From positions 391 to 64,390 of the forward strand of contig JAFGLO010000011.1 of NCBI GenBank assembly GCA_016927995.1: DNA of 64,000 bases, given 5' to 3'. The stretch comes from Candidatus Dojkabacteria bacterium. Lineage in GTDB: Bacteria > Patescibacteriota > Dojkabacteria > JAFGLO01. Both the position numbers and the translations under genes were made by a program. Shown here in pieces: positions 47,343 through 55,561 of the stretch. Below the pieces are notes generated by a model. It was not told the origin of the DNA and made no database searches. It worked only from the letters and a program-made list of their open reading frames with translations. The first letter of the stretch is position 1. Each line of letters begins with the position of its first letter.

Positions 47343-48032
47343 TTACTCCACCTTTACTACTCTCCCCTTAAGCCGCCCCTTAAACATAACATATTTAAGC
47401 TCGCGGGTTATAAATTCCACCGTTAGCTGTGCATCGGTTAGGTTGCTAATTGGCATTTTTGACTCTTTTGTTCTAAACAAAAGCCAAAGTTCGTTAGTTA
47501 TAAGTCCTGTCATTACCGCGCCCGAGTTGTAAAAAGAGTTAATATCGGTTACGGAAAACGTATAAGTATTCGTGCCGTCTGTGCTATTTGGAGTACTTGA
47601 CTGCTTTACTCCTTCACTACTCATCGGATGCGTATGAACATTAAAAAGATACATGACTTCAACTATTTTGGGGGCATCTTTATAGTAAACAAGCCGTTTT
47701 GAATAAGTTTTCCCGCCAACAGTTACAACCCTTTCGTAGTACTCGGGTTTGTGTGAGGAATTATATACAACGCTAACATCTGTTTTTGACTGAACATAGG
47801 TTTTACCCCCTCGCATTAGTTCGGTAGTTACAAGCTCACCATCGGCAAAAAACACCATGAAGGCTCGCTCGTGATCATCGGCCCTTGTGTGTTTGTATGC
47901 TCTAACCGCCGTATTCCAAAAATCAGAGTTAAAGTCGATTACGCGTGGTAATTCAAACTCATTCGGAAAGGCATTAATAGTTTTTAAGCCTTTTAGTTTT
48001 TTGTATAGTTCGTGATATGTAAATTTGCTCAT
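47343..48032 (-). CDS. Hypothetical protein
   Basis: It is a 229-aa ORF. It contains HTHP but not a complete JAMM motif. Confidence 0.35.
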   Translation of the reverse strand: MSKFTYHELYKKLKGLKTINAFPNEFELPRVIDFNSDFWNTAVRAYKHTRADDHERAFMVFFADGELVTTELMRGGKTYVQSKTDVSVVYNSSHKPEYYERVVTVGGKTYSKRLVYYKDAPKIVEVMYLFNVHTHPMSSEGVKQSSTPNSTDGTNTYTFSVTDINSFYNSGAVMTGLITNELWLLFRTKESKMPISNLTDAQLTVEFITRELKYVMFKGRLKGRVVKVE

Positions 48033-48293: not shown

Positions 48294-49103
48294 ATGCTAA
48301 TAGTAATACTGGCTCTACAGAGAAGAAAGAAGAGACGTTCGATACTTCAGTCGGAGCCGGATTCAGAAACTGATAACAATGAAACTGAAGTTAATGAAGA
48401 AGAAGCTACAAATGAAACCGAAGATTCGGAAAAAGGAAGTACCACATCGACGGCTACCGCATCTACCGCAACCGCAAATACAAGTAATAATACAACAACC
48501 TCAAGTAATACTTCAGAGCAACCAGTTGCCCCTACAACTAAAACTTTTGTTGGTGACTACATAACAATAACTATACCTACTGCGTGGAATGCCGAAGAAA
48601 TCCACGAAAGACCAACCTACGGTGACGTCGGACTTATTGAATTCAATCTGTATAATGCTGCCGGTACAAAGGTTTTTGGTCTTTATGCTCCAGAAGCATT
48701 GGGATGGGGTGGAAATGAGTGTAGCGATTTTGGGACATACAAGGCTTTTTCTGACTATAATCCGGCATCATATCAAAGTTATGTTGACTTCTTTACCGCG
48801 TCATGTACTGGAGAACCTGCTGCGCTTGAGTTTATTTCGTATCAGACAGAAACAAGTTTTCTGGGTTATAGAATTAGAAGAACCTCTGGTGTCTATAGAA
48901 TGGATAGTATAAAGGGAGACCAATATTTTAGCGAGGGACGAGAGTCTGGTCTGCCTATAACTTATAATCTTCAGTCTACCGGGATTTCTTATTTCCTCGG
49001 AGGTACTTACAAAGAATATATATATACCATTACCTTTAATCCAACGGCTAGTGATTACACACAGCTAGAGACGGCTTTGGCTACTGCTGTCATCAGTCAA
49101 TAA
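48294..49103 (+). CDS. Secreted hypothetical protein with acidic/Thr-rich linker; possible frameshift versus the upstream signal-anchor ORF 48161..48373
   Basis: The upstream ORF supplies a signal anchor (LRIGIIISTVTLVSAGGYF) in another frame and overlaps this ORF by 80 nt. A single indel near 48340-48370 would fuse the two. Confidence 0.4.
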   Translation: MLIVILALQRRKKRRSILQSEPDSETDNNETEVNEEEATNETEDSEKGSTTSTATASTATANTSNNTTTSSNTSEQPVAPTTKTFVGDYITITIPTAWNAEEIHERPTYGDVGLIEFNLYNAAGTKVFGLYAPEALGWGGNECSDFGTYKAFSDYNPASYQSYVDFFTASCTGEPAALEFISYQTETSFLGYRIRRTSGVYRMDSIKGDQYFSEGRESGLPITYNLQSTGISYFLGGTYKEYIYTITFNPTASDYTQLETALATAVISQ

Positions 49104-51663: not shown

Positions 51664-51976
51664 GCAGTAAACAGTAGGGATTAAATGGTAATTAAATCCG
51701 ACAGGATCGGTCGGGACGTGTTTCTATCTTATTCCTAGTTCATATATCTAGACGTATTTTTTGATTAGCCAGCAGTGAGAATCGAACTCAGCGTGCTACC
51801 TCTTGCACGCTATCTTTCCCGAATCTAATGTACGGGAAGAATTTAATAAGAAACGGAATCGGTTCAAGTAATTAATAGTAATAAGCCGGCAATCGGAATT
51901 GAGCGAGCATCCTTGGCGAGCTACGCAAAGTCGATGGCAATCAACTGAAACAGAAACTGAGTTCGTAATGGATATT

Positions 51977-52049
51977 AGCCGGCAATCGGAATTGAACCGA
52001 TGACCTACGGTTTACGATACCGCCGCTCTACCAACTGAGCTATGCCGGC
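51977..52049 (-). tRNA. tRNA-Thr (CGT)
   Basis: Folded by hand: GCCGGCA-UA-GCUC AGUUGGUA GAGC-G-GCGGU AUCGUAA ACCGU-AGGUC-AUCGG UUCAAUU CCGAU-UGCCGGC-U. Confidence 0.8.
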
Positions 52050-52227
52050 CCCAATAATAATCTGTCGGTCATAGCGAACTTGTCCGCCTCTGGCGGAAGC
52101 TATGCCGGTGAAAGTGCAACTAGACGAACAAAAAACAACGTTACTAATGATTATACTATTGAATCTGTCATTTTGCCAGAATAGATGATTGACTATCATG
52201 GCTATCATCGGCTATAATTAGTTATCA

Positions 52228-52761
52228 TCATAACCAGGGGTGCCTAAGGTTTCGACCGACCGCCAGTCCTGGTTTTTTCTTTTTATAGCCAAACGACCCT
52301 ACCTGTTTATCCAACCTAATTATGTACGTGTCATACTTTCTTGGCAGGCAAGAGTACTTATGATTTGGTGTAAGTACTTTGAGTAATTTCCCTTTCTCCT
52401 TCAGATATTGGATAAGACAAGAAAAATCTCCATCACCACTTACTATTACAGCTTTTTTATAATTGTTGTATTCAATTGCTGCTGCATGTAAAACTAACTC
52501 TGCATCGACATTTCCTTTAACCGCCTCTCTTTTGTCAGCGAAATATCGTACGGTGGGTTTAAATACCAGAATGAATCCTGCCAACTGTAATGTTGTATAG
52601 AGTTTTTGATTATTAGGTAACTGTCCGATAAACATAAAAGCCATTGATACATTGTATTTATTTTTTAGATATAGTCGGAATCTCGGGTAATCAATTTTCC
52701 ATCCAGTAGACATAATTCCTAGGTATAAATTCTGGCTATCGATAAAAGCATAGTTATCCAT
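52228..52761 (-). CDS. NYN-domain (LabA-like, PIN-like nuclease fold) protein, tandem copy A
   Basis: It contains FIDSQNLY...NVDAELVLHAAAIEYNNYKKAVIVSGDGDF, with the Asp residues typical of NYN/LabA. The last 25 codons read through the hairpin of the antisense module. Confidence 0.65.
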   Translation of the reverse strand: MDNYAFIDSQNLYLGIMSTGWKIDYPRFRLYLKNKYNVSMAFMFIGQLPNNQKLYTTLQLAGFILVFKPTVRYFADKREAVKGNVDAELVLHAAAIEYNNYKKAVIVSGDGDFSCLIQYLKEKGKLLKVLTPNHKYSCLPRKYDTYIIRLDKQVGSFGYKKKKPGLAVGRNLRHPWL

Positions 52762-52904
52762 GCTTTAATTTTACGCGACGGCATGACCGAAAAGAAATGG
52801 CGGAATCTGTCGTTTTGCCAGAATACGAGATTGAATTAGTCAATAATAATTGTTATAATTAAATGTTTATGATAAGGGGACTACCAAAATGGATTTTATT
52901 CCAT

Positions 52905-53100
52905 GCGGGAATGCCCCTTTTTTCTTTTCAACTTATCCTTTAACCTTGCCAAGGAAATCAAGTATGGTGAATACTTTTTTAACAATGAGGAATATTTCTC
53001 GTTTGGAGTGATTATATTTTTTAGTTTGTTTTTCCTCTCCAAGTATTCAATTAAACAAAAGAAATCCCCATCACCCGAAATAATGACGGCTTTATCATAA
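52905..53100 (-). pseudogene. Truncated NYN-domain gene copy B (C-terminal ~64 codons only)
   Basis: Reverse translation gives EYNNYDKAVIISGDGDFFCLIEYLERKNKLKNIITPNEKYSSLLKKY... with no N-terminal half. The listed + ORF 52903..53100 is its antisense. Confidence 0.5.
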
Positions 53101-53137
53101 TTGTTATATTCTATTTTGCCAGAATAGAAGGAAAGCT

Positions 53138-53232
53138 TTACGTTACTTATTGGAATCTGCTATAATGGATTATCACGATGAGAGGACTACCAAAATGGAC
53201 CTCGATCCATGCGGGAATTCCTCTCTTTTTTT
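53138..53232 (+). ncRNA. Candidate small RNA: sigma70-like promoter, then a 7-bp-stem hairpin plus T7, convergent with and abutting the 3' end of NYN copy C
   Basis: The promoter is TTACGT, a 17-bp spacer, then extended -10 tgcTATAAT (53161-53166). The hairpin 53180-53225 is gagagga...tcctctc with an inner atgga/tccat stem, followed by ttttttt. Homologous modules lie at 52831-52923 (TTGAAT, 17 bp, tgtTATAAT; hairpin gggga..gcccc + T6) and at 52189-52278 (TTGACT...TATAAT; hairpin ccagg..cctgg + T7). Confidence 0.35.
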
Positions 53233-53242
53233 AAAAAAGCGG

Positions 53243-53725
53243 CTACTTCCCTTTCCTAAGTTTTTCCTTTAACTCACCCAAAGACACAATATACTTACTA
53301 TATTTTTTAAGAAGGGATGAGTATTTTCTATTGGGTGCAATTACTTTTGCCAGCTTTTTATTCTCTGCTAGGTACTCTACAAGACAGTAAAAGTCACCAT
53401 CACCCGATACTATTACAGCTTTATCATAGTTGTCTTTTTCCATCATTGTGTGTAAAACCAGCTCTGCGTCAACATTTCCTTTGTAGGTTATCTTGTCAGC
53501 CTTTTTTATTTCTAGGACTTTCTTAAAGATAAGGATATATCCCAATTCTTGTAGTTCTTTATACAGTTTTGCGTTTGATTCTATATAGCCTATGAATAAA
53601 AATGCTGTTTTAACGTTATATTTGTTACGGAGGTACAGTCTAAATTTTCCGTAGTCTAATTCCCATTTATCGGCTTTTGTTCCTATGTATAGGTTTTGGC
53701 TGTCTATGAATGCATGATTTTTCAT
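53243..53725 (-). CDS. NYN-domain (LabA-like) protein, tandem copy C
   Basis: It contains FIDSQNLY...NVDAELVLHTMMEKDNYDKAVIVSGDGDFYCLVEYL. Confidence 0.7.
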   Translation of the reverse strand: MKNHAFIDSQNLYIGTKADKWELDYGKFRLYLRNKYNVKTAFLFIGYIESNAKLYKELQELGYILIFKKVLEIKKADKITYKGNVDAELVLHTMMEKDNYDKAVIVSGDGDFYCLVEYLAENKKLAKVIAPNRKYSSLLKKYSKYIVSLGELKEKLRKGK

Positions 53726-54370
53726 GCTTTATTGTACTACGGTTTAGAAAATTTGGATAATTCCTGCCAAAGATTTTCTTCAATCTCGACTTCGCCCGAT
53801 GTTTCAATTTGTTTTGTTAAGCGAAATCGAGTAGAGTTTTCGAAGAACAACCGACAGCTATAGATTGAGTACTTATTACAGAGACCACGTCTCTAAAGGT
53901 AAAACTACTCGTACGAGTATATTATGCCCCAACCTTTGATGACGTTACAAACAAGACGATCTATGGTATAATACACTTTCAATAGATAAGCTGACCAAAC
54001 ATCTATAGTGATCGAAGAGTTTATCAGAGCCGAAAAAGAAAGTGTTATAAGTTGCCTTGGGGAAAATTCTCGTTTAGTTTCTGTAGTTAATGTACAAGGT
54101 TTGCGTGAGGGAATCGAAGATCCGAACAGTATCATGGTGACTAGAGGGTCTATTGACCCTCAAGATCCAAACTGCTGGAGTATTATTGTTGAAAAAGATA
54201 GTCAGAATTTTACCATTGTAAGATCTCCTCAAGGTGATCTTCAAGTTGTTACAGAGGAGAACAACGTTGTTCCTTTCGATGGAGATTCAGAATTTGCACA
54301 AGCTATATTTAACCAAATAGGAGTAAGGACTCCTAATCCATTGGAAGCCTCAGCACTGGCCTCAATAGGA

Positions 54371-55561
54371 ATGCTTACTTCTCCTACGGAACGATCAAGA
54401 AGAGATTTATTAAAAATTGTTGGAATTTTAGCAACTTTTGTGGGACTTACCTGTTGTACCTTTGGTGGTAGTGGGAATTATGAACCCACAATAGTCGTCA
54501 ATGGAACTGCTGTCCCCACAAAAGTTGAAACAGTCGTAACACCTTCTCCCGAGTCTTCACCCGTACAAAGGGCAGAACTTATAGCAAAAACCGAACCGTG
54601 GCAAATATTGCCTTCTCTTTCAAGTGAAATAAATGCTATTAATGTAAAATTTGTTAACAGGGATGAATATATAGCTCTTGCGAGAGAAGATGGGATAATA
54701 ATTCCGGATGGATATGAAAGCAGCTTTTTAGAAGAAAGCGATGCAAAATTACTAACTAATCTTAGAGTTATAGTAATTAATCGTGACGCTCCAACATTTA
54801 CCACACAGATGGAAGGATTTTCAACTGAAACTGAAAAAGACAATTTCCTTACAAGATTACTTACACATGTTATAAAGCACGAGGTAAGTCACGGCGTAAG
54901 CGAAACAAAACCTGTTTCCGATGAGCTAAAGCGTGCTGTAGCCGAAAACCCTTTAACCAATGCATTTACGGCTATAACTACATTTGGTTATTCCATAGGA
55001 CTGGATGGTGGCTACCAATTAAGCGGTCTCGAGGAAGTTGTGGTTACGCACTTTAATACATTGAACTGTGGTTCAACTTGTGTGATTGATCAAATCTCAC
55101 TATCGTATATAGGAACCGAAATGATAGAGCCTGTCAATACATTCCTTGCCAACACCCTTGATGTGGAGGCAGGGTCCTTTGTCAACTATGTCATACATAA
55201 GGCAACTGATGGTATAGATGGCTTAATTGATCGCTTGGTTATAAGATATAATTGTGTTTCTGGGATTGACAGAAGAGGTATAACAAAAATGGTACTTGAT
55301 TTTGTTGTTGCCACAACTTTTGCACATACAAGTTACCTTTATTGGAGAAAATTATCCAATGGCGACGCTACTCAAAGAGAGGATGCTGATCAATATAAAG
55401 AACGATATGATTTATTTATCAAAACCATGAATGATATTGCCACGGCTGTTAAGAATAGAAGTACTGAATACACTCCACTTGCAAACAACAGTCGAACATT
55501 TATGGCTAATCTTATTTCAGGTTATTCTTCTTCTGCACACAAGCTTACTATGAGAAGTTAA
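54371..55561 (+). CDS. Tat-signal lipoprotein-like putative zinc metalloprotease (HExxH)
   Basis: From the internal Met it reads MLTSPTERSRRDLLKIVGILATFVGLTCC, a twin-arginine motif plus a lipobox-like LTC. HEVSHG lies downstream. The in-frame 121-codon extension to 54008 is probably not translated. Confidence 0.5.
   Translation: MLTSPTERSRRDLLKIVGILATFVGLTCCTFGGSGNYEPTIVVNGTAVPTKVETVVTPSPESSPVQRAELIAKTEPWQILPSLSSEINAINVKFVNRDEYIALAREDGIIIPDGYESSFLEESDAKLLTNLRVIVINRDAPTFTTQMEGFSTETEKDNFLTRLLTHVIKHEVSHGVSETKPVSDELKRAVAENPLTNAFTAITTFGYSIGLDGGYQLSGLEEVVVTHFNTLNCGSTCVIDQISLSYIGTEMIEPVNTFLANTLDVEAGSFVNYVIHKATDGIDGLIDRLVIRYNCVSGIDRRGITKMVLDFVVATTFAHTSYLYWRKLSNGDATQREDADQYKERYDLFIKTMNDIATAVKNRSTEYTPLANNSRTFMANLISGYSSSAHKLTMRS

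What the first reader, a model, noticed from the sequence alone, without database searches (positions are those of the whole stretch)
52130..53740. Tandem NYN-domain nuclease array, each unit paired with a convergent promoter-hairpin-terminator small-RNA module
Three tandem units lie next to tRNA-Thr, the middle one truncated. Each has a NYN/LabA-like (PIN-fold nuclease) gene on the minus strand. At each gene's 3' end on the plus strand there is a sigma70-like promoter (-35, 17-19 bp, extended -10 TATAAT) followed within about 15-20 nt by a hairpin and a T6-7 run. That predicts transcripts of roughly 50-70 nt. In units B and C the hairpin sequence is conserved (ggactaccaaaatgga...atccatgcgggaat). 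A block tgtc[a/g]ttttgccagaata precedes every promoter. The geometry mimics type I toxin-antitoxin loci such as txpA/RatA, where an antisense RNA overlaps the toxin mRNA 3' end. The difference is that the putative toxin here is an RNase-fold protein rather than a small peptide. To my knowledge this pairing is not described. Triplication with decay is also typical of toxin-antitoxin/defence loci.
Basis: partly seen in the sequence, partly recalled or inferred. Interest (0 to 1): 0.72.

Follow-up and report, generated by a model that had tools for sequence, protein, structure and literature searches.

The report
NYN nuclease paired with conserved small RNA
Next to a tRNA gene in this Candidatus Dojkabacteria genome lie three copies of a two-gene cassette, a NYN-type RNA-cutting enzyme facing a tiny structured RNA gene, and the same pairing recurs in hundreds of related ultra-small bacteria and some of their viruses, which suggests an undescribed RNA-controlled nuclease (toxin-antitoxin-like) system.

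Summary
The window holds two intact NYN genes (52228-52761 and 53243-53725, minus strand) and one C-terminal fragment (52896-53114). Each faces a plus-strand unit of sigma70-like promoter, hairpin and U-run.

Of 80 NYN homologue loci from other genomes, mostly labelled Patescibacteria, 76 carry the same convergent unit. Two more are cut by contig ends. The -10 box ends 5-7 nt before an almost invariant 5' leader, AUCACGAUGA. A three-helix rod hairpin follows, and 15 of its 18 base pairs covary. The internal loops are conserved.

Hairpin A is not unrelated to B and C. It is a second subtype of the same RNA family, and subtypes track NYN protein clades. No Rfam family matches, and I found no paper describing it.

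The association is asymmetric. NYN almost never lacks the RNA (76 of 78 evaluable loci). About a quarter of the RNA genes lack NYN (21 of 83), some of them in viral contigs.

My best reading is a self-contained nuclease plus RNA-antidote module, like a toxin-antitoxin pair. It combines a type I geometry with type III-like RNA conservation. Toxicity, transcripts and RNA-protein binding are all untested.

The parts
51976..52050 (-). tRNA-Thr (anticodon CGU); the left neighbour of the array
   Evidence: ARAGORN; Rfam tRNA 69.7 bits
52161..52192 (+). Block A: a repeat just upstream of and running into the -35 of promoter A (core TTTTGCCAGAATA at 52171-52183)
   Evidence: Direct-repeat families D5 and D7. 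The core has 3 exact copies in the window, only here, and none in 213 other loci
52189..52218 (+). Promoter of sRNA-A (TTGACT, 18 nt, TATAAT)
   Evidence: Consensus scan, 11/12. Same position relative to the RNA 5' end as in 75 other loci
52224..52280 (+). sRNA-A, subtype 2. Leader AUCAUCAU, then hairpin AACCAGGG-GU-GC-CUAA-GGU-UUCG-ACC-GACC-GC-CAG-UCCUGGUU, then a U-run
   Evidence: Covariance model R1, 55.0 bits, E 1.6e-11 (this copy was in the training set). Fold -16.8 kcal/mol. Core identical to more than 100 metagenomic copies
52228..52761 (-). NYN-A, 177 aa, intact. The ORF runs through the whole complement of hairpin A. A -10-like TAAAAT box at 52768-52773(-) lies 6 nt before the ATG
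   Evidence: Pfam PF01936 63.2 bits. Sits in the subtype-2 protein clade. Sequence read
52803..52834 (+). Block B (core 52813-52825), 88% identical to block A over 32 nt
52831..52859 (+). Promoter of sRNA-B (TTGAAT, 17 nt, TG-TATAAT)
52866..52923 (+). sRNA-B, subtype 1, with a degenerate leader (UUUAUGAU) and an intact hairpin and U-run
   Evidence: R1 56.6 bits. Fold -18.5 kcal/mol. Compensatory changes relative to C (D2)
52896..53114 (-). NYN-B, a truncated remnant holding only the C-terminal 72 aa. It is cut off at block C, and its last codons overlap hairpin B
   Evidence: Translation. Repeat family D1
53113..53128 (+). Block C (ATTTTGCCAGAATAGA), which marks the truncation point of NYN-B
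   Evidence: (D7)
53137..53166 (+). Promoter of sRNA-C (TTTACG, 18 nt, TG-TATAAT)
53172..53232 (+). sRNA-C, subtype 1. Consensus leader AUCACGAUGA, hairpin GAGAGGA-CUA-CC-AAA-AUGGA-loop-UCCAU-GCG-GG-AAU-UCCUCUC, then U7
   Evidence: R1 62.1 bits, E 2.9e-13. Fold -19.2 kcal/mol, z -3.5
53243..53725 (-). NYN-C, 160 aa, intact. It stops 10 nt after the U-run of sRNA-C
   Evidence: Pfam PF01936 61.8 bits. AF2 model pLDDT 87.6. Nearest solved folds are 2qip and the MARF1 NYN domain. 100% identical to MBN1374288.1, Candidatus Dojkabacteria
53731..53736 (-). -10-like box TACAAT, 5 nt upstream of the NYN-C ATG. This suggests a leaderless mRNA
   Evidence: Sequence read. The same arrangement occurs in 26 of 66 homologous loci against 2.75 +/- 1.6 in controls

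Best explanation
Each unit is a self-contained two-gene module. One gene encodes a small, catalytically intact NYN (LabA-like, PIN-fold) ribonuclease, often transcribed as a leaderless mRNA. The other is a convergent small-RNA gene with a near-consensus sigma70 promoter. It makes a transcript of about 55-60 nt: a conserved single-stranded 5' leader (AUCACGAUGA), then a rod-like hairpin (P1, internal loop, P2, internal loop, P3) that also serves as its own intrinsic terminator. The RNA gene abuts or overlaps the 3' end of the NYN gene.

I propose that the RNA is the dedicated antidote or regulator of the nuclease, so the pair works like a toxin-antitoxin or abortive-infection module. The favoured mechanism is that the NYN protein recognises the conserved loops of the hairpin and is held inactive by it, as in type III systems, possibly with processing at the leader. 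Because the RNA is also perfectly complementary to the 3' end of the NYN mRNA, often including its stop codon, antisense pairing is a built-in second layer, as in type I systems. When RNA synthesis stops or the RNA is degraded, free NYN would cleave cellular or phage RNA. Stand-alone copies of the RNA in genomes and viral contigs would act as spare or decoy antidotes.

In this window, cassette A (subtype 2) and cassette C (subtype 1) are intact, deeply diverged paralogues. Cassette B is a decayed relative of C that has kept its RNA.

Shown: gene anatomy, conservation, covariation, promoter position, co-occurrence statistics and the NYN fold with its catalytic residues. Inferred: transcription, toxicity, neutralisation, and which of the two modes applies.
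For: Forward association. 76 of 80 NYN loci from other genomes carry the convergent promoter-leader-hairpin-U-run unit. Two of the other four are cut by contig ends.

Promoter. In 75 loci the -10 box (T73 A75 t a a T73) ends 5-7 nt before the leader's first A, exactly 6 nt in 52 of them. A TTGACA -35 sits 16-17 nt upstream.

Structure. 15 of 18 pairs show changes on both sides. There are 189 compensatory cells against 56.5 +/- 4.8 in shuffles (0 of 500 shuffles reach this) and 8-35 in slid controls. In an independent metagenomic set, all 6 P1 pairs covary and 96% of cells pair. G-U pairs outnumber A-C on the promoter strand, 24:2 and 15:7.

Loops and leader are conserved while P1 is hypervariable. 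RNA subtypes track NYN protein clades.

Asymmetry, as expected for a toxin and its antidote. NYN without RNA is found in 2 of 78 loci. RNA without NYN is found in 21 of 83, mostly with no NYN remnant.

No third conserved gene, and the neighbours vary. Multiple diverged copies and a decayed copy occur in one genome (this window). Tandem RNA genes and double hairpins occur elsewhere.

Viral contigs hold both complete modules (L211, L212) and orphan RNAs. The orphans lie beside DUF5681 and terminase-like genes, or beside genes that I read as GIY-YIG-like and SSB-like.

The NYN ORF overlaps the hairpin in 46 of 76 loci. The catalytic Asp residues are invariant, and the fold matches 2qip and the MARF1 NYN domain.
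Against: There is no expression data, no toxicity data and no binding data. NYN proteins of this clade are unusually conserved for a toxin (54-78% identity to NYN-C among loci from differently labelled lineages). That could instead indicate a housekeeping RNase with a dedicated regulatory RNA. Two homologues with intact catalytic motifs lack the RNA (L068, L079). The known type III architecture (tandem repeats upstream on the same strand, ToxN-fold toxin) is not met. The structural alignment behind one search was fitted to the structure by hand, which inflates the percentage paired, though not the double-sided changes. The copy number per genome could not be measured. Conserved loops in stem-loops are also typical of pure antisense RNAs (kissing loops), so loop conservation does not prove protein binding.
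Confidence: 0.45

Rival explanations
1. Pure cis-antisense control, type I-like. The small RNA acts only by pairing with the 3' end of the NYN mRNA. It covers the stop codon or triggers RNase III cleavage and non-stop decay, and convergent transcription adds interference. The hairpin and its loops are conserved for terminator function, RNA stability and kissing-loop initiation, not for protein binding.
For: The geometry is convergent and overlapping. The NYN ORF ends inside the hairpin in 46 of 76 loci, with a mode of 31 nt, and the stop codon is supplied by the complement of the conserved CUAA or by the P3 loop. On the NYN strand nothing that looks like a terminator precedes the RNA gene, so the mRNA must contain the complement. 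The antisense promoter is strong while the NYN promoter is a weaker, leaderless type.
Against: A quarter of the RNA genes have no NYN gene to pair with. Double hairpins and extra tandem RNA genes are hard to explain by cis-antisense action. The 10-nt leader lies beyond any NYN coding sequence yet is almost invariant across lineages. P1 changes freely, which would weaken any cross-protection in trans.
Confidence: 0.25
2. Functional ribonucleoprotein or processing pair, not a toxin-antidote pair. NYN matures the small RNA, for example by removing the leader. Or it uses the RNA as a cofactor or specificity subunit, with the conserved leader pairing to a conserved target. The role would be housekeeping or defence.
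For: The protein is highly conserved across CPR lineages. The leader is invariant and single-stranded, so it could pair with a conserved target or be a cleavage site. RNA subtypes co-vary with protein clades. Nanosynbacter relatives share the same flanks (L069 and L074).
Against: There are several diverged copies plus a decayed one in a single genome, the neighbourhoods vary, and orphan RNAs occur in viral contigs. All of this fits a conflict module better than a housekeeping one. A fixed 10-nt leader cannot act as a programmable guide. No complementary target was found in the NYN 5' region. rRNA could not be tested because none was available.
Confidence: 0.2
3. DNA-level element. The hairpins are recombination sites of gene cassettes, like integron attC sites, or are leftover terminators. 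The tandem array arose by site-specific insertion and no functional RNA is involved.
For: The window has a tandem array of gene-plus-imperfect-hairpin units beside a tRNA gene. A 13-32 nt block repeats at every unit boundary, and one unit is truncated exactly at a block. tRNA 3'-half fragments lie nearby.
Against: A consensus promoter sits at a fixed distance in 75 loci, and a U-run follows on one strand only. G-U pairs exceed A-C on that strand. Most loci hold a single unit among housekeeping genes. None of the seven flanking genes tested is a recombinase. The block is absent from all other loci.
Confidence: 0.04

Closest known systems
Type I toxin-antitoxin loci with 3'-overlapping antisense RNA (txpA/RatA and bsrG/SR4 of Bacillus subtilis; nuclease-type type I toxins SymE/SymR and RalR/RalA of E. 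coli). These examples are from my own knowledge.
   Same: Both have a convergent, strongly promoted small RNA with its own terminator that overlaps the 3' end of the effector gene. Both are stand-alone two-gene modules, occur in multiple copies and show decay.
   Different: The effector here is a 160-180 aa NYN-fold RNase, not a small membrane peptide. The RNA has a leader and internal loops conserved across lineages, exists in at least three subtypes that track protein clades, and often occurs without any NYN gene. Action at the mRNA level is untested.
Type III toxin-antitoxin systems (ToxIN, CptIN, TenpIN; AvcID). See PMC8860590, PMC12283969 and PMC10511110.
   Same: Both pair an enzyme effector (an RNase in ToxIN, CptIN and TenpIN; a deaminase in AvcID) with a structured non-coding RNA under sequence and structure constraint. 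Some loci here carry two hairpin units in one transcript. RNA-only copies in viral contigs recall phage pseudo-ToxI escape (my own knowledge).
   Different: There is no array of direct repeats upstream on the same strand. The RNA is convergent with its own promoter. The toxin fold is NYN/PIN-like, not ToxN/AbiQ-like. RNA-protein binding and processing are untested.
LabA-like NYN proteins (Pfam PF01936, COG1432; structure 2qip VPA0982; MARF1 NYN domain)
   Same: The domain, the conserved acidic residues and the fold are the same.
   Different: The function of bacterial NYN.COG1432 proteins is listed as unknown in the PIN-superfamily survey (PMC5499597). No RNA partner is described there. A 33%-identical NYN gene on a Sinorhizobium plasmid has no such RNA next to it.

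Membership tests
NYN domain (Pfam PF01936, LabA-like/COG1432) | Match to the family HMM above the curated cutoff | tested here: met
   63.2 and 61.8 bits against a cutoff of 24.2
NYN domain (Pfam PF01936, LabA-like/COG1432) | Conserved acidic active-site residues | tested here: met
   D8, D86 (NVDAE), D109 and D111 (GDGDF) are invariant in 26 sequences, including both window copies. They align to the VDVQN and SGDGDF motifs of 2qip. Copy B lacks the first two
NYN domain (Pfam PF01936, LabA-like/COG1432) | PIN-like alpha/beta fold | tested here: met
   AF2 pLDDT 87.6, pTM 0.83. Foldseek: 2qip at E 2.2e-7 and TM 0.68; MARF1 NYN at TM 0.64
NYN domain (Pfam PF01936, LabA-like/COG1432) | Ribonuclease activity | not testable with these tools
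   Needs an enzyme assay
Type I toxin-antitoxin | The antitoxin is an RNA complementary to the toxin mRNA | tested here: inconclusive
   The genes converge and overlap or abut. The ORF overlaps the hairpin in 46 of 76 loci, and in window copies A and B. Transcript ends are unknown
Type I toxin-antitoxin | The toxin is a small (under about 60 aa) hydrophobic peptide | tested here: not met
   The proteins are 160-177 aa soluble NYN-fold proteins. No conserved small ORF lies on the RNA strand: the ATG is lost in several loci and the frames are inconsistent
Type I toxin-antitoxin | Toxin expression is lethal or static, and the RNA blocks its translation or stability | not testable with these tools
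   Needs experiments
Type III toxin-antitoxin (ToxIN/CptIN/TenpIN) | The RNA antitoxin is an array of direct repeats upstream of the toxin on the same strand, separated from it by a terminator | tested here: not met
   There is a single hairpin (two in a few loci), it is convergent, and it has its own promoter
Type III toxin-antitoxin (ToxIN/CptIN/TenpIN) | ToxN/AbiQ-type endoribonuclease toxin | tested here: not met
   Only NYN models match in Pfam and PADLOC
Type III toxin-antitoxin (ToxIN/CptIN/TenpIN) | The RNA binds and inhibits the toxin protein | not testable with these tools
   Indirect support only: conserved loops, subtypes that track protein clades, and orphan copies
Any Rfam 15 RNA family | Covariance-model match at or near the gathering score | tested here: not met
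   No hit over the modules in the window at gathering score or at E<=10, nor in 10 other loci at E<=1
Integron gene cassettes (attC) | Linked tyrosine-recombinase integrase and promoterless cassettes | tested here: not met
   None of the seven flanking genes tested is a recombinase. Each hairpin is preceded by a consensus promoter. The rest of the window was not scanned for integrases
Known anti-phage defence systems (PADLOC-DB 2.0) | Full-length match to a system protein model | tested here: inconclusive
   Only partial, weak matches: PDLC01154 'NYN' at E 1.2e-9 over the C-terminal half of a 310-aa model, and HEC-09 at E 1.5e-7

The most novel reading that the evidence does not exclude
A widespread class of RNA-controlled nuclease modules in the Candidate Phyla Radiation. 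A structured small RNA of about 55 nt, in at least three co-evolving subtypes, is the cognate antidote or partner of a LabA-like NYN RNase. The pair would form a new toxin-antitoxin or abortive-infection type that merges type I geometry with type III-like RNA recognition. Phages would carry decoy copies of the RNA to disarm it. This would also give the first function for the large LabA-like NYN family in bacteria, and the first conserved small RNA known in CPR bacteria.
Probability: 0.45. Interest if true: 0.88.

Novelty: new variant of a known kind. Interest (0 to 1): 0.8.

Why it matters
Patescibacteria (the Candidate Phyla Radiation) make up a large share of bacterial diversity. They have tiny genomes and almost no known regulatory RNAs. 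A TM7x transcriptome paper states there are 'no currently validated small RNAs' (10.1101/2022.03.25.485537).

This is an RNA gene with a near-consensus promoter, a fixed 5' end, a covarying three-helix structure and a terminator. It is found in the large majority of the 213 loci fetched from other genomes, metagenomes and viral contigs, and it is tightly coupled to one protein family whose bacterial function was still listed as unknown in the 2017 PIN-superfamily survey (PMC5499597).

If the pair is a toxin-antidote or defence module, it adds a new toxin fold and a new RNA antitoxin architecture. It also suggests that CPR phages carry RNA decoys. The idea is directly testable, because oral Nanosynbacter relatives carry the module and, to my knowledge, related Saccharibacteria are cultivable and genetically tractable.

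Tried and rejected
1. Known RNA family. Rfam at gathering score and at permissive E-values, on the window and on 10 other loci, gave nothing over the modules.

2. Small ORF in the RNA. The leader's AUG is lost in several loci (GAUAA and GAUAG variants), and the reading frames differ between subtypes. Rejected.

3. Terminator of an upstream plus-strand gene. There is no such gene in the window, and a promoter directly precedes the hairpin in 75 loci. Rejected.

4. SRP RNA, tRNA-like, hammerhead, hairpin-ribozyme, C/D-box and k-turn resemblances. I considered these by eye only. None fits, and Rfam models of these classes did not hit.

5. Leader pairing with the NYN 5' region. I inspected the upstream regions of 79 loci. 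No complement of AUCACGAUGA is evident, but the inspection did reveal the leaderless-type promoters. I ran no energy-based test. Pairing to rRNA could not be tested because no rRNA was in hand.

6. A conserved third gene. All-against-all comparison of flanking ORFs in 80 loci found no family in more than 8 loci, and the largest of those are antisense artefacts of NYN itself.

7. The block TTTTGCCAGAATA as a general feature. It is absent from all 213 other loci, so it is specific to this genome. It may be a cassette junction or promoter-upstream repeat. On the minus strand it also supplies a -35-like CTGGCA for a promoter-like site upstream of tRNA-Thr.

8. Covariance model R1. It was built on a MAFFT alignment in the subtype-1 register. 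It detects all subtypes but aligns P2 and P3 of subtype 2 out of register. P2 and P3 covariation therefore rests on my hand-made, N-padded structural alignment A3, which was fitted to the structure.

9. Cultured-phage and plasmid collections. There was no phage hit, and plasmids held only 33%-identical NYN genes without the RNA.

10. Literature. Seven full-text searches, including the motif sequences themselves, found no description.
Full report
**1. What is in the window**

The window is from a Candidatus Dojkabacteria (Patescibacteria/CPR) contig. NYN-C is 100% identical to MBN1374288.1 and NYN-A to MBN1374286.1.

Between tRNA-Thr(CGU) (51976-52050, minus) and an unannotated 517-aa ORF (54008-55561; no Pfam hit) lie three head-to-tail units. 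Each unit reads, on the plus strand, short repeat block, then sigma70-like promoter, then hairpin, then U-run. A NYN gene follows on the minus strand.

NYN-A (52228-52761) and NYN-C (53243-53725) match Pfam PF01936 at 63.2 and 61.8 bits against a cutoff of 24.2. The middle copy (52896-53114) is an in-frame C-terminal 72-aa remnant. It is cut off exactly at the third repeat block.

The three best promoter-like sites of the region are at 52189-52218, 52831-52859 and 53137-53166. The hairpins fold at -16.8 to -19.2 kcal/mol. B and C share a 27-nt core exactly and differ in the outer stem by two compensatory changes.

**2. The pairing is general**

A profile of the protein family pulled 80 homologous loci from species-representative genomes. 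The records are labelled Saccharibacteria, Dojkabacteria, Microgenomates-group, Parcubacteria-group and Peribacteria. Some MAGs carry labels such as 'Gammaproteobacteria', which I could not verify.

In 76 of these loci the 3' end of the NYN gene faces the same unit: TTGACA, 16-17 nt, TATAAT, 5-7 nt, ATCACGATGA, hairpin, T-run. Two further loci are cut by contig ends. Two (L068, L079) have intact NYN genes without the unit.

The -10 box ends exactly 6 nt before the leader's first A in 52 of 75 loci. This places the transcription start at that A and predicts RNAs of about 55-60 nt. The hairpin is thus not the terminator of some other gene.

**3. One RNA family with several subtypes**

All copies share one architecture: leader, P1 (6-8 bp), internal loop 1, P2 (2-4 bp), internal loop 2, P3, terminal loop.

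- Subtype 1 (window B and C): GAGAGG ACUA CC AAA P3 G(A/C)G GG AAUG CCUCUC.
- Subtype 2 (window A): GACUGG AUA GGC CUAA GGU-UUCG-ACC GA(C/A)C GCC GAUG CCAGUC.
- Subtype 3: GAGAGGG CAC ACC UAA GG-UUUCGU-CC GAA GGU UACU CCCUCUC.

I built a structural alignment of 67 distinct sequences (A3). On it, 15 of 18 pairs show changes on both sides. There are 189 compensatory cells against 56.5 +/- 4.8 in column shuffles (0 of 500 shuffles reach this) and 8-35 when partners are slid. The alignment was fitted to the structure, so the 99% paired figure is inflated. The double-sided changes are not.

In an independent metagenomic set aligned by a covariance model, all six P1 pairs covary and 96% of cells pair. 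G-U pairs outnumber A-C mismatches on the promoter strand, 24:2 and 15:7. This argues that the structure is selected on that strand.

The leader and both internal loops are conserved, while P1 is hypervariable. No Rfam family matches. Full-text searches, including the motif sequences themselves, found no description.

**4. Co-inheritance and asymmetry**

On a neighbour-joining tree of the NYN proteins the RNA subtypes form coherent clades. NYN-A sits among subtype-2 proteins and NYN-C among subtype-1 proteins. A and C are thus old paralogues (54% identity), each with its cognate RNA type. B is a decayed relative of C.

For the reverse test I scanned metagenomes for the 17-nt subtype-2 core. 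Most hits are complete RNA genes. Among those with the leader and at least 500 nt of sequence downstream, 62 face a NYN gene and 21 do not. Most of the 21 have no NYN remnant.

So the nuclease almost never occurs without the RNA (2 of 78 loci), while the RNA often occurs alone. This is the asymmetry expected of a harmful protein and its antidote.

No other gene family recurs next to the pair, and the neighbours are varied housekeeping genes. Some loci have two RNA genes in tandem, each with its own promoter (L098, L198). Others have two hairpins in one transcript (L055, L089, L102, L104, L159).

**5. Viral contigs**

IMG/VR holds only two NYN homologues. Both have the convergent RNA, and one lies next to a terminase GpA-nuclease-domain gene (L211, L212).

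It also holds several RNA copies without NYN:

- L201 and L202 lie directly upstream of a DUF5681 gene and a large ORF that I read as a terminase. Only the DUF5681 assignment was tested, and only for L201.
- L206 lies near a large ORF that I read, from its sequence only, as a peptidase or lysin-like gene. This was not tested.
- L213 lies next to ORFs that I read as GIY-YIG-like and SSB-like. These were not tested.

RNA-only copies in phages are what one would expect of antidote decoys, but this remains an inference.

**6. The protein and its expression signals**

D8, D86, D109 and D111 are invariant. The closest solved relative by sequence is 2qip (E 2.5e-10). The AF2 model (pLDDT 87.6) matches 2qip and the MARF1 NYN domain.

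Many NYN genes appear leaderless. In 26 of 66 loci a box matching TATAAT at 5 of 6 positions or better ends 4-9 nt before the ATG, against 2.75 +/- 1.6 in controls. Only 4 of 66 have a Shine-Dalgarno-like 4-mer. The window copies follow this pattern: TACAAT lies 5 nt before the ATG of NYN-C and TAAAAT 6 nt before that of NYN-A.

The NYN ORF ends inside the hairpin in 46 of 76 loci. This explains the oddly conserved C-terminal tails such as ERHSRGKQG. They are the complement of the RNA read in frame.

**7. Mechanism**

The anatomy fits a two-gene nuclease plus RNA-antidote module. Two modes of neutralisation are possible and need not exclude each other.

- Antisense pairing to the mRNA 3' end (type I-like) is built into the geometry.
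- Recognition of the hairpin by the protein (type III-like) better explains several findings. These are the conserved loops and leader, the subtype-clade correspondence, the double hairpins and extra RNA genes, and the many orphan copies.

I favour the second mode, with the first as an added layer (confidence 0.45). The rivals are pure antisense control (0.25), a functional RNP or processing pair (0.2) and a DNA-level cassette element (0.04). None of this is shown experimentally.

**8. Comparison with known systems, and verdict**

The protein is a member of the NYN/LabA-like family: all testable features are met. The module is not a member of the type I class as usually defined, because the toxin is not a small peptide. 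[quoted passage not shown] It may still work like one or both.

A 33%-identical NYN gene on a Sinorhizobium plasmid has no such RNA, so the pairing is specific to this clade.

I rate it a new variant of a known kind, an RNA-controlled nuclease module, built from a new RNA family and a toxin fold not previously used in such systems. Interest is 0.8.

Noticed in passing
window 51744-51800 and 51884-51937 (minus strand), downstream of tRNA-Thr: Two tRNA 3'-half-like fragments. One repeats the last 18 nt of tRNA-Thr (AGCCGGCAATCGGAATTGA; repeat D8, 87% over 30 nt). The other ends in a different T-arm and acceptor sequence (GAGTTCGATTCTCACTGCTGGCT). They look like scars of past integrations at tRNA 3' ends.
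   Followed up: partly
window 52067-52110 (minus strand), just upstream of tRNA-Thr: A hairpin-forming stretch, GGCATAGCTTCCGCCAGAGGCGGACAAGTTCGCTATGACC. It repeats 11 nt of the tRNA 5' end (CCGGCATAGCT). It could be a pseudo-tRNA piece or a leader structure.
   Followed up: no
window 52150-52179 (minus strand): A promoter-like site, CTGGCA-18-TATAAT, about 100 nt upstream of tRNA-Thr. Its -35 is the reverse complement of repeat block A. A similar site, CTGGCA-17-TATGAT, lies at 53094-53122 inside the NYN-B remnant. The block may therefore belong to a divergent promoter region.
   Followed up: partly
window 53726-53740 and 52762-52775; loci L002-L005, L012, L023, L030, L031, L045, L069 and others: NYN genes commonly have a TATAAT-like box 5-8 nt before the ATG and no Shine-Dalgarno sequence. 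This points to leaderless mRNAs (26 of 66 loci against 2.75 expected).
   Followed up: yes
proteins P0013, P0016, P0023, P0026, P0047, P0059, P0079, P0093 (alignment A1): Conserved C-terminal tails (E/R)RHSRGKQG in otherwise variable C-termini. They arise because the ORF reads through the complement of the conserved small RNA. They are probably not a functional peptide motif.
   Followed up: yes
L113 and L186 (metagenome contigs): Here the small-RNA gene is convergent with a different gene pair instead of NYN. The pair is a DUF4325 (STAS-like) protein and, upstream of it, a 322-aa ORF that I read as ATPase-like (not tested). This may be an alternative partner.
   Followed up: partly
L198 4599-4652; L003 141-200: Further hairpin variants behind the same ATCACGA-type leader. 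Examples are GAGAGGACAACTGACGGCTTTCGTGCCTAGGTGACGCCTCTC in L198 and ATCACGAGGGAGAATACGACCC... in L003. The RNA family probably has more than three subtypes.
   Followed up: no
L203, L207, L209, L210 (viral contigs): The subtype-2 core CCTAAGGTTTCGACCGA sits inside other stems, without the leader or an obvious promoter. R1 still matches L209 and L210 weakly (25.6 and 34.2 bits). Their role is unknown.
   Followed up: partly
window 54008-55561 (+), 48294-49103 (+), 47343-48032 (-): Three ORFs (517, 269 and 229 aa) have no Pfam match at E<=0.001. The 517-aa ORF directly flanks the array.
   Followed up: no
L019, L022, L029, L030, L036, L040 and other loci: Several module-bearing MAG contigs are labelled 'uncultured Gammaproteobacteria', 'Pseudomonadales' or 'Eubacteriales' in their records. 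Either the labels are unreliable or the module reaches beyond Patescibacteria. I did not resolve this.
   Followed up: no
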